Shown here one piece after another: positions 19,911-39,400 of a stretch of 64,000 nt of DNA. A program made the position numbers. The stretch spans positions 18,104,001 through 18,168,000 of the forward strand of contig NC_087250.1 in assembly GCF_037042905.1 (NCBI RefSeq), written 5' to 3'. This DNA is from Lytechinus pictus (lineage: Eukaryota). Each line of letters opens with the position of its first letter. The stretch's first letter is position 1.

Positions 19911-22900
19911 ACACATGAAGGTGGAGTAAATGAAATAAATGAATGTTGTAATTCTAACATTGTATGTACATATAATTCTCAGCATAATATGAGTTTTCCC
20001 AGTTGGAGATCATGTCTGTCAAAGATAACAATTTTGACACAGAAAATACTATTCAACATCATATTAAATATTATTTATACTTGCAGCTACAAAATAATTC
20101 ATTCACAACCTTTGCCAACCACAAGCGAACGATTAAATGAAGCTACTTGTTGCTATAACACTTTATAGAATATGTCATGAACATCGACGTATCACCAGCA
20201 TGAACCCGCTCTATACACCTACATGGTACTATCTATCATGTGGTAATTAAAATATGTATTTTCTTTCAATTCCAAAGTCACATATTCCTAAATTCTTGAC
20301 GAATGGTTTATGTGCATTTAATATGAATAATCTATATTACACAGAGTAATACAAATTAAATAGAGTTCCTTAAACCTTACAAGAACAATAACATTTAATT
20401 TCGACATTACTGTCATGCACATTTTACAAAGCTAAAAAGACATACGCACCCCTGTATGCTTTGATAGTACAGAGTGAGTATAACTTTCATTTTACTGGAA
20501 AAGATCACCAAAGGCGCTCCTTTAACAGTCTTGAAAATAGGTACCTGACATGCAGTAACGAAACAAGCTGAATTAAAGTGTTAACAAAACTTTCCCCTCC
20601 AGTTCCTACTTTAGAAGACATGGAAGATTCGTAGGAAATTAGTTGAGCCTATTTGAGCCTATGAGGATCGACTACACTCTATCATGTCTAAGTGTCGTGA
20701 AATATGAATTCAGCTTCATTTCTTAACCCAACGGTCTCTAAAGCAAGTTGAAGTTTTTTAACCTGTCCACTAGGTCGGACGCGCTTTCTCCAGTCTTGAA
20801 GCATCTCTTTAAGACCTGCATTCGAGGCAATACTTGCAGAAGAGTCTGCTCTGGAAAGATACTTGCTGACCATCGAGTGGGAGAAACCTAGCTGGTAACC
20901 AAGCTCACTTGCATCCTTTATTCCAGAGACTAAACCAGTCAACACCTGTATCACGTCGTTCGAAACGAACCTCAATCGGCCTCTTCTGAATGTGGATTAA
21001 ACAAAGTGCAGTCTGAGTTCAGTCAAGTTAGAGTAGACACTTCAAATCACTAATTTCATTGGAAAATATTTTAAATTCAAGGTCAATGTCCACATGATCA
21101 TCAAAGATCTTTATCTGATACGTTCAGTTCAATATTTCAAACCAACGCAAAAAGTGATCACGCTGAGAATTGTCAACATATGATAGAAAAGCGCATGTGG
21201 GACTGTGTTTTATTGTTTGGCGAAATGCATAATTAACCAGCAGCAACAATAAAATTCTTAATTTGCTAATTGGTAAGCAATGACGCATCTACAACCATAA
21301 TCATTTTGCACATGATTATGTTTCGTTTATTGGTGGTTATTTCCTTGCATTTGTGCAAATTCTTTCTCGTCATCACAACTGGGGTTTATTTTTGATCCAC
21401 ACAATCTGCATCATTATGTAAAAATTTGGAGCTACTATACTGTATAATTGAAATACGGACAAAATTCACCTTCCAATTCTATTTAAAAAATAAAAGTAAT
21501 CATTAAATGAATGGTACAAAATACTAATCCATGATTTCATGGAATCTGTTCGTATTCCTTTTCATCAACTTGGCATTTTGTACCGAAATAATTTTGCATA
21601 TATTTTCCATCTAATAAGGAAAAAAAACACGTAGGTGATCATAAAATTGCATTTGTGAAATGTCATGTTTTTAAAATTTGAATAACAATTTTTTTCAGAG
21701 TTCTTTATAAAAAATCATTCTAAAAATGATTCATTTGTCGGTTATCTTAAATTTTTGGCCAAATTGTCGCATTTCAACTATTTTTCTGTAACTACGTAAA
21801 GTTCTAAACTCATACGTGTTGAAAGATTTACATTCTCTTACCTTTGTGTTTTTTCGTAATCAGGTTCCACTGTTAAAGAAAAAAGAAAGCCAACAAAGTT
21901 CTGGATTTAAGTACTCCACAAGCTTATAAATGCACCATAAAATATTCATTTCTCTTAATGGAATGATCTATTCCAAAGATGATTTCGTTATGGATTTTTT
22001 TGTCAAGTCAAGAACATGATGCCTGATACATCATTAGCATTCTTTTTGACGTGATATCATGCGAATAGAATGGAAATCAATATGATTGTTTGAGTACTCT
22101 TACATTCAAAGTGCAATTAGCAAAATTTCTNNNNNNNNNNNNNNNNNNNNNNNNNNNNNNNNNNNNNNNNNNNNNNNNNNNNNNNNNNNNNNNNNNNNNN
22201 NNNNNNNNNNNNNNNNNNNNNNNNNNNNNNNNNNNNNNNNNNNNNNNNNNNNNNNNNNNNNNNNNNNNNNNNNNNNNNNNNNNNNNNNNNNNNNNNNNNN
22301 NNNNNNNNNNNNNNNNNNNNNNNGGAAATCTGACTTTGATCGATAATTTCTCCTAGGTTTTAGTGAATATTACTGTGTGATTGATACCAAATCATTTAAT
22401 TCACTTTAAAATGATACCCTACATAATATGATTATGGTTCACATAGAGGTGCAGTGCCTCGAAATGTGGGGCAATGTCAAAATTCAAAGTTGCAAAATGA
22501 CACAATATTGAAAGTCACTGTTCTTTTTTTTTGTGATTAAGGTATCAAAGAAAAGAGCAGATATTGAACTTTTTAGTCATGTGATTTTCTTTTTGAAATT
22601 CAGATACCCCCCGCCAAATGAGTTTTTGGTATCCTTTCTTCAAATTGTTTTTGCTCACTCATGCTTGAATGAGGAATTATCTAAGTAATATCAGATGAAA
22701 ATTTGGGTTTTTTAGCTTTACATTGGTAGGTCATTTGTCTATTTTATTTATGATTAAGTTATGATAAATCATCGCTAAATCTCGGTTTCGTTTTTTCTGG
22801 GACGCACTGTATATAGATATAGATATAAAATGACTGTGTTCGATGGTGTTTTTATTTTAAAAATCATCCGTCTTCATTCACATATGATCTTTCTTTTTTC

Positions 22901-36491: not shown

Positions 36492-39400
36492 GGGGGGGGT
36501 TCTCCAGACTCTACATATCTCCCCAGACAAGAAAAAAAAAGTATAGGGGGTCTACATGTATTGGGCTACTTTTCAGAATCTATTGGCCACATCTGCCTCA
36601 TTCTTGGGGAAGTTTTAACATTGAATAGGGAGTTGCCCGCCTGGGGCTCTTTTTAAAATTTCTTACGGGCAGATTGCACAAGAGGTTCTTTGCAAGGACA
36701 GTCTATTTGTGTCGTTGATTTGTAATGTGCCGTATGAGTCGCATTTTTAATATCCATCACATATGAATATAAAAAGATATACATGTAAGCCTAAATCTAT
36801 TTTTTACTTTTTTTTAGGTCTACTATGCCGGGGGGGGGGGTACTTAGATTTGGTTTGGACAAAGGTGTGCGGCTGAAGGTTTGAAACCCGTACCCATATT
36901 TACAGGCCATTTTGGCTAAAAAGGTACCCATTATTAGGGATTTATTACAGGGGCAGATCCAGGATTTCCAAAAGGGGGGGGGGCACATTTTTGCCTGGAA
37001 AACTTGACAAGCAAAAAAAAAAAAGAAAAAGGTTATCGCCCAAAATGTAAGGTAATTTTGTATTTGCACCTAAGACATTGGAGTAGAATATGGACCCATG
37101 TTTAAGGCCAGTATCTAAAAATTGGGACCATGTTCAGGGATTTTCCAGCATAATACCATACCCCATGTTCAGGATTTTTTTTTCCAAAAAAGCGACCCAT
37201 TCTAGCGGCACATCCCCGTATGCCTTATTTTGTGAGTACTTGAAATCGCTTGGGGATTAGTTTAATGCTAACAAGGAGCCGGATTGCTAAATGCACCTTA
37301 TTTTTTTACGGTTATCAATTAAGTTATGAGCTCATAATTACCTGGCTTTCAATTTCTTCTTCCTCACGATGGCACGTGATTGTGACGTCACCAGCCTTTT
37401 TTTCAACATTGAAAGGGACCGAGCGATGACATCTATGGTAAGATTGTTGTCTCGACTCCTCTTGAGTAGCCTACAAAGATGATTACGATTATAATCTATT
37501 TTAATTGTTGAAAAATGAAAAAAAAAAAAAAAAAAAATCGATATTTTATCATTCTTAATAGAAATCTGAAGTATTAATATTCCTAAGACTAATTTTGCCT
37601 GCCTAATTAATATTTGGTGCGGCAGTGCTATTTATTTGTCTGACGCGACCGGAGCTTGAAATCACGACTTCCCGCCGCTTGTGAGTCGGACGCTCTCCTA
37701 TCTGAGCCAAAACAGTTGAAAATATTGATAATATATAATAATGTTATTACCAACATGCAGTTACAGATGTGAAAAGTTACTTTACTTCATTTAATTGTAA
37801 AAAGTATCTTGGTCTTTATTTACAAAGGTGCTAATATATATCTTAGCAGAACTATCTATAACAATGTTGGTGATAAGAGCAACACTGAATATGACATTGA
37901 TAATTATATCAAAAATGATAATGATAACAATAGTAATAATAAGAATATCTATAATAGTGAAATGGTTCAGAGCGCTTCAAATCATCACGTCAAGCAATAG
38001 CATTCAAGTAATTTTGTTCTACCCGCAAACATTCACCTCATCTGGCTGGAGGGTGGAAATTTTCAATCAACATTTTCTCAAATGATAAGGATCTTCCGGT
38101 TTTCAGAGCTGTCTTGATTTGGCGAATGACCGATAATTTTGAACTTATTGTGAGTGACGATGTTTAGTACTGACCGCTTCGTTTCCAGGTAGGTCATTAC
38201 ACAACTGAAGATTAACTGCAAACTCTTGTCCTCTTTCGATCCTGTCTGGGACGTATGGAGTACAAATAAGTTGTTGTCGGATCACCTGTTGTTCAAGAGG
38301 AATCAGAACCCACCACTCTGCACAGTGGCCAATGTACAGCTCAAGATGTCTTTTGTACATTCTGCAGTATGGTGGTTTGTCTGGTGAGCTGGAAGATTGC
38401 TTTATTAGAGTTTTTGGTAGATCTTGTTTTACCAATGCCGATAAGAGAAAAAAGATCAATGGAATGCACTTTATCACAACTTTCAGAAAGTCATTATGGT
38501 TATAAACTGTATAACTATCAGGAACGGTATTATTAGTGACATAATTAGCTCATGAAGGAAGCTGATATATTGAATGATGACACTGCGGTGTTGATTTTTT
38601 TTTATAACAAACACGTGTACACGTTGGTATCAATAATGCACAAAGCATTTTCATTCATTTAAAGCAAGATAAAAGAGCAATGCATAGAAATACGCCTCGG
38701 TCAATGAAGGGCCCTGCCGGGAATCGAACCCCGGACTTTCAGTGTGTAGTCAGGTGCCTTAGACCACTCGGCCGCGGCACCACGCCGTTGATAGTGAAAA
38801 TGATGACGATCGATGCCACTTGTAATTATACTGATTGTAATGATGATCTTAGAATGTCAAATTAGATATTTGGTATATATATACTGTAGGTTAGCTTCAA
38901 AGTCATTAAAAAAAAAAAAATAGTCCTTATGCTTTACTGATACCATAATAGTCCAATCTCAATCTTTATGGACTTACTCGTGATTGAGTCCCACACACGA
39001 CAAACGATGTCTGGTTTCACCTGCTCTGGATTTACGACCAATAAAGAATGTGGTATATTGATCTTAACAGGCTGGTTGAAGATCAAGGTATGAGGGTCAC
39101 ACCTGATCCCGTAGCAGATCAATGATTCACCTTCAGTGACATAAATACCGGGATTGTCTGTAAGGATGGCTAGGGTGAACTGACAAGAGTCATCAGATAG
39201 AACCGCTCCTGGAGGAAGGTACATTGATATTCCATGGTCTTCTAGATTAACTTCCTGACTGGAATTTCTGTTGACTTTGACAGAGGCATCGTTAGAGTTC
39301 GATGGCCGATCTGTGATATATGCACGTATACAAGGTGAACAAAAAGGTCATGGTACACACAATACAGAGGAACAAACCTGTTCCTTAGCCTTGTTATGAT

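What the first reader, a model, noticed from the sequence alone, without database searches (positions are those of the whole stretch)
20688..39310. The ZU5-UPA-DD module is internally duplicated with an identical intron-phase pattern
Seen: module 1 exons are 333 nt (phase 1-1), 248 (1-0), 129 (0-0), 163 (0-1), 46 (1-2), then a DD exon entered in phase 2. Module 2 exons are 345 (1-1), 221 (1-0), 135 (0-0), 145 (0-1), 28 (1-2), then a DD exon entered in phase 2. The protein sequences are very diverged. This supports an ancient six-exon duplication and independently supports the gene model. Known: in UNC5B the ZU5-UPA-DD supramodule autoinhibits the DD. Inference: two separately gated death-domain switches in one chain.
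[Added by the scan's program, not by the reader: the finding's places include an assembly gap (unread letters, written N; its length is only estimated) at 22131 to 22323. Whether the letters on both sides are continuous or in frame is not known: test that first.]
Basis: partly seen in the sequence, partly recalled or inferred. Interest (0 to 1): 0.68.

Follow-up and report, generated by a model that had tools for sequence, protein, structure and literature searches.

The report
Duplicated ZU5-UPA-death-domain cassette, sea urchin
A sea-urchin gene for a giant ankyrin-repeat, multi-death-domain protein carries two very diverged copies of the same six-exon ZU5-UPA-death-domain cassette, with introns at matching places and in matching phases; this is a solid but fairly ordinary case of ancient block duplication in an uncharacterised, urchin-specific family.

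Summary
On the minus strand all ten stated exons exist with AG/GT borders, the stated lengths and the stated phases, and both death-domain (DD) exons are entered in phase 2.

- **Organism:** the window is from the sea urchin Lytechinus pictus, not human.
- **Assembly gap:** the N gap lies in the intron between the 145-nt and 28-nt exons. Homologous proteins need no residues from it.
- **Homology of the modules:** profiles of the two modules align collinearly over 355 columns (99.1 %, E 1.6e-18). All five internal introns fall within 0-2 residues of matching columns, against 0 of 2,000,000 random placements.
- **Fold:** a model of module 2 matches the UNC5B ZU5-UPA-DD structure (E 1.7e-15). Module 1 matches ankyrin-B more weakly. 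Pfam sees no UPA in either.
- **Family:** the two-module chain is a family trait of camarodont urchins, found in 9 of 138 proteins and always in the order M1 then M2.

Caveats:
- Exon 2 has no sequence signal of its own.
- DD5 is not specifically closest to DD1.
- At this locus the DD1→DD2 splice is doubtful, so "one chain" is unproven here.
- "Two gated switches" remains untested.

The parts
43364..58027 (-). Context: giant single open frame of 33-residue ankyrin repeats (4895 codons to the stop at 43343). The likely donor follows 43364, in phase 0.
   Evidence: searches (ORF; 99-nt period, 163.7 copies over 43403-59602), (AAG|gtaggc).
42862..43044 (-). Linker exon A (last ankyrin repeat), phase 0-0.
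   Evidence: P0025 residues 337-403; Ank Pfam hits.
42387..42544 (-). Linker exon B, phase 0-2.
40188..40222 (-). Linker exon C, 35 nt (LPSLDGVQSTR), phase 2-1.
   Evidence: matches P0025 and P0028 'RLPSLDDV'.
38978..39310 (-). Module 1 exon 1, 333 nt, phase 1-1: most of ZU5.
   Evidence: Pfam ZU5 6.1e-11.
38175..38422 (-). Module 1 exon 2, 248 nt, phase 1-0: end of ZU5 and start of the UPA-like part.
   Evidence: (P0027 junctions).
37342..37470 (-). Module 1 exon 3, 129 nt, phase 0-0: UPA-like part. It is skipped in database isoform P0031.
36150..36312 (-). Module 1 exon 4, 163 nt, phase 0-1: UPA-like part, motif VPPSEDD.
35759..35804 (-). Module 1 micro-exon, 46 nt, phase 1-2.
   Evidence: (P0027 ...DGPVCQFPSKQTDVT).
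35123..35409 (-). DD1 exon, 287 nt, entered in phase 2, left in phase 1.
   Evidence: Pfam Death 3.9e-5, 24.1 bits against a cut-off of 22.6.
33893..34150 (-). DD2 exon, 258 nt, phase 1-1 if the middle AG of CAG|AG|AG is used. This is the doubtful junction.
   Evidence: Pfam Death 2.5e-5; DD1-DD2 profiles 99.6 %.
32855..32983 (-). Acidic linker exon, 129 nt, phase 1-1.
32333..32626 (-). DD3 exon, 294 nt, phase 1-1. It is a helical bundle in the model but has no Pfam hit.
   Evidence: (helices 93-165 of P0002, pLDDT about 90).
25994..26242 (-). DD4 exon, 249 nt, phase 1-1.
   Evidence: Pfam Death 0.033, below the cut-off; six helices in the model.
24458..24802 (-). Module 2 exon 1, 345 nt, phase 1-1: most of ZU5.
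   Evidence: Pfam ZU5 8.9e-14; 99 % identical to P0001.
23964..24184 (-). Module 2 exon 2, 221 nt, phase 1-0.
23466..23600 (-). Module 2 exon 3, 135 nt, phase 0-0.
22907..23051 (-). Module 2 exon 4, 145 nt, phase 0-1, motif LPPSTDD.
22131..22323 (.). Assembly gap (N) inside the intron between module 2 exon 4 and the 28-nt exon. It was neither filled nor looked up.
   Evidence: no homologue residues are missing.
21842..21869 (-). Module 2 micro-exon, 28 nt, phase 1-2 (EPDYEKTQ).
   Evidence: ttttctttaacag|...|gtaaga.
20688..20985 (-). DD5 exon, entered in phase 2 (tandem acceptors 20985/20982), ending with the TAG stop at 20690-20688.
   Evidence: Pfam Death 0.002, 18.7 bits, below the cut-off; 98 % identical to P0007; helices 559-645 in the model.

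Best explanation
**Shown.** The region is the 3' half of a Lytechinus pictus gene of an urchin-specific family. The layout is a huge ankyrin-repeat exon, three small linker exons, [ZU5-UPA-like-micro-exon-DD1], DD2, an acidic linker, DD3, DD4, then [ZU5-UPA-like-micro-exon-DD5]. The two bracketed modules are diverged copies (about 20 % identity between profiles) of one six-exon cassette. The intron positions and phases of that cassette have been kept. Both cassettes are entered in phase 1. All exons between them are phase 1-1, so blocks could be copied or dropped without breaking the frame.

**Shown for the family.** The copy event predates the spread of the family in camarodont urchins, and the two-module gene was then copied as a unit.

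**Inferred (about 0.3-0.4).** Each module folds like the UNC5B cytoplasmic ZU5-UPA-DD supramodule. The protein would be a cytosolic death-fold scaffold: the ankyrin solenoid binds targets and up to five death domains nucleate oligomeric signalling complexes, probably in cell death or innate immunity. Neither module in the window has the H-F-S self-cleavage motif at the aligned site (H-C-A and H-L-Q instead). Any gating would therefore be by conformation, not by autoproteolysis.

**Open (about even odds).** It is unclear whether this locus still makes one chain through the DD1→DD2 junction, or two products: ANK-module 1, and DD3-DD4-module 2.
For: - **Exons and phases:**
- **Independent junction support** from public models: P0027, P0031, P0032 and P0036; P0002, P0007, P0008 and P0009.
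- **Domains:** ZU5 in both first exons.
- **Module homology:** module 1 profile (17 rows) against module 2 profile (19 rows) gives 99.06 %, E 1.6e-18, 355 columns. Intron offsets are +1, -2, +1, 0, -2 residues, against 0 of 2,000,000 random placements. In an exon-by-exon profile matrix, 4 of 5 exons score best against their counterpart.
- **Fold, module 2:** the P0002 model has pLDDT 82, pTM 0.75. Its best match is UNC5B 3g5b at E 1.7e-15, TM 0.56 on the target, 410 columns; then ankyrin-B 4d8o at 1.2e-10 and CARD8/NLRP1 ZU5-UPA.
- **Fold, module 1:** the P0032 model has pLDDT 74. Its only hit at E <= 1e-3 is 4d8o.
- **Atlas features:** both middle parts retrieve the same UPA/UNC5B/FIIND clusters.
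- **Family:** every named hit comes from three urchin species. Of 138 proteins, 9 have M1 then M2 and none has the reverse order. The tree has separate M1 and M2 clades.
- **H-F-S site:**
Against: - Pfam finds no UPA in either module.
- Exon 2 shows no similarity: BLASTP gives none and the profile score is at background. Two aligners pair its histidine motif differently.
- The module 1 model is poor over residues 127-182 and its TM-scores to solved structures are 0.13-0.23.
- DD5 is not closest to DD1: 20 % against 58-61 % to DD2 and DD4.
- At this locus only 1 of 3 adjacent AGs keeps the frame into DD2, and it is not the CAG.
- All 7 of 7 database chains that span DD1→DD2 have 7-11 linker residues where the window's model has one.
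- Public models of this locus stop at DD1 (P0029, P0031), and the next model starts before the acidic exon (P0001).
- The ankyrin array has a +1 frame break near 58028-58049.
- No expression data were available, and function is wholly inferred.
Confidence: 0.8

Rival explanations
1. At this locus the two modules belong to two separate products, or the copy is decaying. One product would be ANK-module 1 ending after DD1. A second unit would start near the acidic exon and carry DD3-DD4-module 2. The duplication stays real, but 'two modules in one chain' would be false here.
For: - The paralogue-type acceptor for DD2 is absent.
- Of CAG|AG|AG, the first AG gives a stop after 14 codons and the third after 18.
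- Public models P0029 and P0031 end '...TTFPGLS' by reading into the intron after DD1, and P0001 starts from a Met in the intron before the acidic exon.
- There is a second frame break in the ankyrin array.
Against: - The middle AG (34150) gives a clean in-frame DD2, and every other junction from the ANK exon to the stop is phase-consistent.
- All downstream exons are open and 72-98 % identical to P0007.
- Orthologue-like chains in L. variegatus (P0007, P0036) and S. purpuratus (P0009) run through this junction.
- Many L. pictus models of this family end by intron read-through, so truncated models are common.
- Indel errors in the assembly cannot be excluded.
Confidence: 0.4
2. The shared intron pattern is older than this family. 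It would be the ancestral pattern of all ZU5-UPA-DD modules (UNC5, ankyrin, PIDD). The second module would then have been acquired by exon shuffling or fusion from another ZU5-UPA-DD gene, not by a copy within this gene.
For: - Both cassettes are entered in phase 1 and lie among phase 1-1 exons, so they are freely movable.
- A third module type with H-F-S takes the second place in P0188 and P0195.
- DD5 is not closest to DD1.
- A micro-exon between UPA and DD also exists in vertebrate Ank3 and Ank2, though it is 27 nt and so has a different phase effect (PMC13046794, passages read).
Against: - Module 1 and module 2 align over their whole length at E 1.6e-18.
- Sequence profiles of either module reach solved UNC5B only in ZU5 (0.018 and 3.2e-7) and reach no UPA.
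- Pfam UPA misses both.
- Shared short motifs in exons 3 and 4.
- These comparisons are not on one scale, so this is weak evidence.
Confidence: 0.2
3. The scaffold join across the N gap is wrong, and the 28-nt exon plus DD5 belong to a neighbouring paralogue.
For: - Paralogues lie in tandem, to judge by close LOC numbers on one 28.5-Mb contig.
- DD5 is 98 % identical to P0007 while exons 1-4 of module 2 are 77-88 %.
Against: - Order, strand and phase are as in every homologue.
- P0007 is a better match than P0002 on both sides of the gap: exon 4 at 87.5 against 81 %, DD5 at 98 against 69 %.
Confidence: 0.05

Closest known systems
UNC5B cytoplasmic ZU5-UPA-DD supramodule (PDB 3g5b)
   Same: It has the same three-domain order. 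It is the best structural match of module 2 (E 1.7e-15, TM 0.56 on the target, 410 columns). ZU5 is also matched by sequence profile (3.2e-7).
   Different: - No netrin-receptor ectodomain or membrane span is present; ankyrin repeats lie upstream instead.
- There are two modules and three more DDs in the family's chains.
- The UPA is not recognisable by sequence.
- Autoinhibition is known for UNC5B only from a title seen in a reference list (Wang et al. 2009). It is untested here.
Canonical ankyrin (24 ANK repeats, ZU5-ZU5-UPA, DD; PDB 4d8o)
   Same: ANK repeats come before ZU5-UPA-DD. 4d8o is the top fold hit of module 1 and the second of module 2.
   Different: - Canonical ankyrins have 24 repeats and a ZU5-ZU5-UPA cassette (PMC5135030, passages read).
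- Here there are about 160 repeats in one exon, one ZU5 per module, two modules and five DD-like exons.
PIDD1 and the FIIND of NLRP1/CARD8 (self-cleaving ZU5-UPA)
   Same: They share the ZU5-UPA fold: CARD8 7jn7_B has TM 0.56 on the target and NLRP1 7crw_A has 0.48.
   Different: - The window's modules have H-C-A and H-L-Q where a third module type of the same family has H-F-S.
- That H-F-S is the cleavage motif of PIDD is recalled, not taken from a call.
MACC1 / SH3BP4 (ZU5-UPA, SH3, two DDs)
   Same: One ZU5-UPA followed by more than one DD. This architecture is recalled; the review PMC11585957 was only searched for terms.
   Different: No SH3 domain is found here. There is a second ZU5-UPA module and an ANK array.

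Membership tests
ZU5 domain (Pfam PF00791) | A match to the ZU5 profile above the curated cut-off (21 bits). | tested here: met
   Module 1 exon 1 scores 42.9 bits and module 2 exon 1 scores 52 bits.
Death domain (Pfam PF00531) | A match above the curated cut-off (22.6 bits) for each of the five DD-like exons. | tested here: inconclusive
   DD1 24.1 and DD2 24.7 pass. DD5 18.7 and DD4 14.7 fall below. DD3 has no hit. DD3, DD4 and DD5 are confident five- or six-helix bundles in the P0002 model.
UPA domain (Pfam PF17217 / PF17809) | A sequence match to the UPA profile. | tested here: not met
   0 of 13 exon peptides and 0 of 3 full-length homologues match.
UPA domain | UPA fold between ZU5 and DD, superposable on solved ZU5-UPA-DD structures. 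| tested here: met
   For module 2: 3g5b at 1.7e-15 over 410 columns, and 4d8o at 1.2e-10. For module 1 the match is weaker: 4d8o at 2.4e-4, with low model confidence at residues 127-182. Atlas leads score 0.92 and 0.91. The models are of paralogue proteins P0002 and P0032, not of the window's own spliced product.
UNC5 netrin receptors | Ig and thrombospondin ectodomain and a membrane span upstream of ZU5-UPA-DD. | tested here: not met
   Upstream lie ankyrin repeats. No Ig or TSP1 family appears in the precomputed Pfam lists of 24, 15 and 41 hits.
Canonical ankyrin | 24 ANK repeats, tandem ZU5-ZU5-UPA, one DD. | tested here: not met
   The array has 163.7 repeat units. Each module has one ZU5. 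There are two modules and five DD-like exons.
PIDD / FIIND-type self-cleaving ZU5-UPA | An H-F-S (or S-F-S) site at the end of ZU5. | tested here: not met
   H-F-S occurs in 7 of 61 module slices (6 of 6 in the third clade, plus P0071), in no other M1-clade or M2-clade slice, and not in the window's exon peptides. The aligned residues are H-C-A (M1) and H-L-Q (M2). The role of the motif is recalled.
Autoinhibited (closed) supramodule as in UNC5B | The DD docked on its own ZU5-UPA. | not testable with these tools
   Model coordinates are not readable by scripts. TM 0.56 with rmsd 17.5 Å to 3g5b does not settle the domain packing.

The most novel reading that the evidence does not exclude
Camarodont sea urchins hold an undescribed class of giant ankyrin-repeat 'death-fold hubs'. 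One chain would carry two ZU5-UPA-DD switches plus three further death domains. The second switch would come in interchangeable types: a non-cleaving H-L-Q type as in this window, and a PIDD-like H-F-S type in paralogues such as P0188 and P0195. The family would thus combine conformational and proteolytic gating of death-domain assembly on one scaffold.
Probability: 0.15. Interest if true: 0.65.

Novelty: new variant of a known kind. Interest (0 to 1): 0.4.

Why it matters
- ZU5-UPA-DD is a known supramodule in UNC5, ankyrin and PIDD. A chain with two of them, three more death domains and a repeat array of about 160 ankyrin units was not found described in the held library.
- The database members are all 'uncharacterized protein', or carry automatic 'Netrin receptor UNC5' or 'ankyrin-like' names.
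- The family adds detail to the known expansion of death-domain genes in sea urchins: 87 in S. purpuratus against 31 in human (Table 1 of PMC2246300, passage read).
- The preserved intron phases give a clean example of block duplication and a firm gene model for annotators, whose current models of this locus are fragments.
- The finding does not open a long-standing question, and its function is unknown.

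Tried and rejected
- **Complex prediction** of ZU5-UPA (P0002 258-545) with DD5 (546-646): no verdict, score 0.00 in both runs, and my alignment was not used. This is no evidence either way.
The taxa of unnamed rows therefore stay unknown.
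- **Pfam UPA:** no hit.
- **BLASTP of exon 2 against exon 2:** nothing.
- **First set of DD profiles:** loose enough to risk mixing DD1 and DD2 rows. Redone with rows at >= 50 % identity and no shared slices.
- **My first reading that H-L-E of module 1 matches H-F-S:** not borne out by MAFFT, which pairs H-C-A. hhalign pairs H-L-E with H-L-Q. Exon 2 cannot be aligned with confidence.
- **The ankyrin-B structure paper (PMC3323988):** not held.
- **Distant unnamed hits** P0112-P0175 (E above 1e-10): left unused because their origin is unknown. No outgroup-rooted tree against UNC5, ankyrin or PIDD was therefore made.
- **No eukaryotic genome collection is on hand.** Intron positions in paralogues and in UNC5, ankyrin and PIDD genes stay unchecked.
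- **Supplements are closed.** The gene-structure tables of PMC5135030 might bear on ankyrin intron positions.
- was corrected.

Full report
**What is there.** The window is sea-urchin DNA. The module 2 ZU5 exon is 99 % identical to a Lytechinus pictus predicted protein (P0001). The module 1 ZU5 exon is 100 % identical over the shared part to another (P0027). It is not human. The gene lies on the minus strand.

I did not make, search or fold a joined (spliced) translation of the window. Exons were searched one at a time. Whole-chain work used natural database proteins of sea urchins.

**The observation.** A scan for AG...GT-bounded open stretches of the stated lengths found every large exon at one sensible place. 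Frame arithmetic gave the stated phases.

| Exon | Module 1 | Module 2 |
|---|---|---|
| 1 | 39310-38978 (333 nt, 1-1) | 24802-24458 (345 nt, 1-1) |
| 2 | 38422-38175 (248, 1-0) | 24184-23964 (221, 1-0) |
| 3 | 37470-37342 (129, 0-0) | 23600-23466 (135, 0-0) |
| 4 | 36312-36150 (163, 0-1) | 23051-22907 (145, 0-1) |
| 5 (micro-exon) | 35804-35759 (46, 1-2) | 21869-21842 (28, 1-2) |
| DD exon | DD1 from 35409, phase 2 | DD5 from 20985 or 20982, phase 2 |

- The stop codon ends at 20688.
- The two micro-exons, the weakest items a priori (110 and 162 chance candidates of those lengths), were placed by homologues. P0027 reads ...IRYT|DGPVCQFPSKQTDVT. P0007, P0002 and P0008 read ...KE|VEPDYE..Q|RRGR.
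- The 28-nt exon has a strong pyrimidine tract, CAG and GTAAGA.

**The gap.** N 22131-22323 lies inside the intron between the 145-nt and 28-nt exons.
- The phase is 1 on both sides.
- No homologue has residues that would have to come from the gap.
- P0007 is the better match on both sides.
- Its length and the correctness of the join cannot be known. I did not fill it or look it up.

**Are the modules homologous?**
- Exon against exon by BLASTP: E1 22 % (3e-5), E2 nothing, E3 26 % (3e-5), E4 32 % (2e-4), DD 29 % (0.074).
- Profiles built from natural proteins (17 module 1 slices, 19 module 2 slices) align collinearly over 355 columns at 99.06 %, E 1.6e-18, 20 % identity.
- I placed the window's exons as separate fragments into these alignments. 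The five internal introns then fall +1, -2, +1, 0 and -2 residues from corresponding columns. None of 2,000,000 random placements does as well.
- In an exon-by-exon profile matrix, E1, E3, E4 and the DD exon each score best against their counterpart (76.8, 21.8, 20.0, 27.4). E2 is at background (10.8).
- All exon-length differences are multiples of three.

**What the parts are.**
- *Pfam:* it confirms ZU5 in both first exons and Death in DD1 and DD2. DD5 and DD4 are below the cut-off, DD3 has no hit, and UPA is never found.
- *Module 2 model:* AlphaFold2 on family alignments was run for two L. pictus paralogue proteins. P0002 (acidic linker, DD3, DD4, module 2) gave pLDDT 82 and pTM 0.75. DD3 is a five-helix and DD4 a six-helix bundle, followed by two beta domains and a six-helix DD5.
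- *Module 2 fold matches:* the best solved match is UNC5B 3g5b (E 1.7e-15, TM 0.56 on the target, 410 columns). Next come ankyrin-B 4d8o (1.2e-10), ankyrin ZU5 structures and the ZU5-UPA of CARD8 and NLRP1.
- *Module 1 model:* P0032 (module 1 lacking its first strand, plus DD2) gave pLDDT 74, with residues 127-182 poor. Its only hit at E <= 1e-3 is 4d8o (2.4e-4); 3g5b scores 9.7e-3; TM-scores are low.
- *Atlas features:* both middle parts retrieve the same UPA, UNC5B and FIIND clusters in the same order (0.92 and 0.91; leads only).
- *Sequence profiles:* they reach solved structures only in ZU5 (ZO-1, UNC5B) and weakly in DDs.

**The wider gene.** Upstream lies a 4895-codon open frame of 33-residue ankyrin repeats (163.7 units of 99 nt). 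Three small exons link it to module 1 in consistent phase. Between the modules lie DD2, an acidic exon, DD3 and DD4, all phase 1-1.

**The family.**
- The exhaustive search found only 146 representatives at E <= 0.001, 79 at <= 1e-10 and 44 at <= 1e-30.
- Every named relative is from L. pictus, L. variegatus or S. purpuratus.
- Among 138 family proteins, counting modules that cover at least 250 of about 390 profile positions: 30 carry an M1-type module only, 19 an M2-type only, 9 carry M1 then M2, 2 carry M1 then a third type, none carries M2 then M1, and 71 have no module of that coverage.
- A tree of 61 module slices shows an M2 clade (23 rows, support 99), an M1 clade (32 rows, 100) and a third clade (6 rows, 100). 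Inner branching of M1 and M2 runs in parallel (midpoint root only, no outgroup).
- So the copy is older than the family's spread, and the two-module gene was then copied whole.

1. With clean profiles, DD1 and DD2 are close paralogues (99.6 %, E 2.2e-24). DD5 is nearer DD4 (61 %) and DD2 (58 %) than DD1 (20 %). That the DD exon belongs to the copied block therefore rests on its position, the micro-exon and the phase-2 entry. DD2-DD4 are entered in phase 1.
2. The DD1→DD2 junction at this locus is doubtful.
   - The acceptor used in paralogues is missing.
   - The window offers CAG|AG|AG, and only the middle AG (34150) keeps the frame. The others give stops after 14 and 18 codons.
   - All 7 of 7 database chains that span this junction have 7-11 linker residues; the window's model has one.
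   - Public models of this locus end after DD1 by reading into the intron (P0029, P0031), and the next model starts from an intronic Met before the acidic exon (P0001).
   - A +1 frame break also sits in the ankyrin array.
   - This copy may be split or decaying, or the assembly may hold indel errors. I put a single intact chain at about even odds here.
3. Gating of the DDs is untested.

**Mechanism.** H-F-S is, from recall, the self-cleavage motif of PIDD. It occurs in all six third-clade modules and in P0071. It aligns with H-C-A in M1-type modules and H-L-Q in M2-type modules, so the window's modules should not self-cleave.

The most likely working model is a cytosolic death-fold scaffold with UNC5B-like closed modules that hold DDs in check. 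This is inference from fold likeness alone. UNC5B autoinhibition is known to me only from the title of Wang et al. 2009, seen in a reference list.

**Literature.** Four searches found no description of this family.
- Passages of PMC5135030 define canonical ankyrins.
- Passages of PMC13046794 describe a 27-nt micro-exon between UPA and DD in vertebrate Ank3 and Ank2. This is a parallel in place, not in phase.
- Table 1 of PMC2246300 gives the urchin DD expansion.

**Verdict.** The duplication and the gene model are supported. The single chain at this locus and the two-switch idea are open. This is a new variant of a known kind, of moderate interest.

Noticed in passing
window 43343-59602 (minus): There is a giant ankyrin-repeat array: 163.7 units of 99 nt and one 4895-codon open frame. 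Self-identity is 0.84 at one unit, with small peaks at 16, 17 and 33 units, which hints at a higher-order repeat. A +1 frame break (an extra T near 58028-58049) separates it from a further 425-codon repeat frame at 59324-58050.
   Followed up: partly
P0188 (module at 580), P0195 (492), P0199, P0200, P0057, P0058: These carry a third module type, a separate clade with support 100. It takes the second place after an M1-type module in P0188 and P0195, and it carries a literal H-F-S where the window's modules have H-C-A or H-L-Q. It may be a self-cleaving, PIDD-like variant.
   Followed up: partly
window 34148-34155 and 35113-35123 (minus): The DD1→DD2 junction has a CAG|AG|AG acceptor triplet, of which only the middle AG keeps the frame. 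The linker 'DIDPTE' of paralogues is absent here.
   Followed up: yes
P0031, P0054, P0005 against window 36150-38422: Database isoforms or paralogues skip in-frame blocks. P0031 and P0054 lack exon 3 (129 nt, phase 0-0). P0005 goes from ZU5 exon 1 straight to the micro-exon, dropping exons 2-4 (540 nt) and so the whole UPA-like part.
   Followed up: partly
window 20982-20987 (minus): There are tandem acceptors (AGAAG|AG|G) at DD5. The 20985 site gives 'QRRGRL' as in P0007; the 20982 site gives one Arg fewer.
   Followed up: partly
window 26779-27718 and 30945-31211: A 76-78-nt tandem repeat (12.6 copies) has a shorter inverted copy (3.4 copies). Both lie inside the 6090-nt intron between DD3 and DD4.
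   Followed up: no
window 11582-14950 (+) and 3-626 (+): There is a non-LTR retrotransposon: a 976-codon frame with endonuclease (3.1e-13) and reverse transcriptase (2.8e-33). The tail of another reverse-transcriptase frame lies at the window's start.
   Followed up: partly
window 41273-42079: Tandem repeats of 163 and 192 nt lie in the intron between linker exons B and C.
   Followed up: no
window about 1000-1400, 36400-37100, 40500-41050, 61000-62800: A dispersed element with T/A runs next to G/C runs recurs in both orientations in introns and flanks; its translations show runs of F, K, G and P. It is probably a SINE-like repeat.
   Followed up: no
window 710-837: A second assembly gap (N) lies outside the gene.
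   Followed up: no
(P0007 against P0002 over window 20688-24802): Similarity is mosaic. Module 2 exon 1 is closer to L. pictus paralogue P0002 (89 %) than to P0007 (77 %), but exons 2-4 and DD5 are closer to P0007 (80-98 %). This may reflect gene conversion among tandem paralogues.
   Followed up: no
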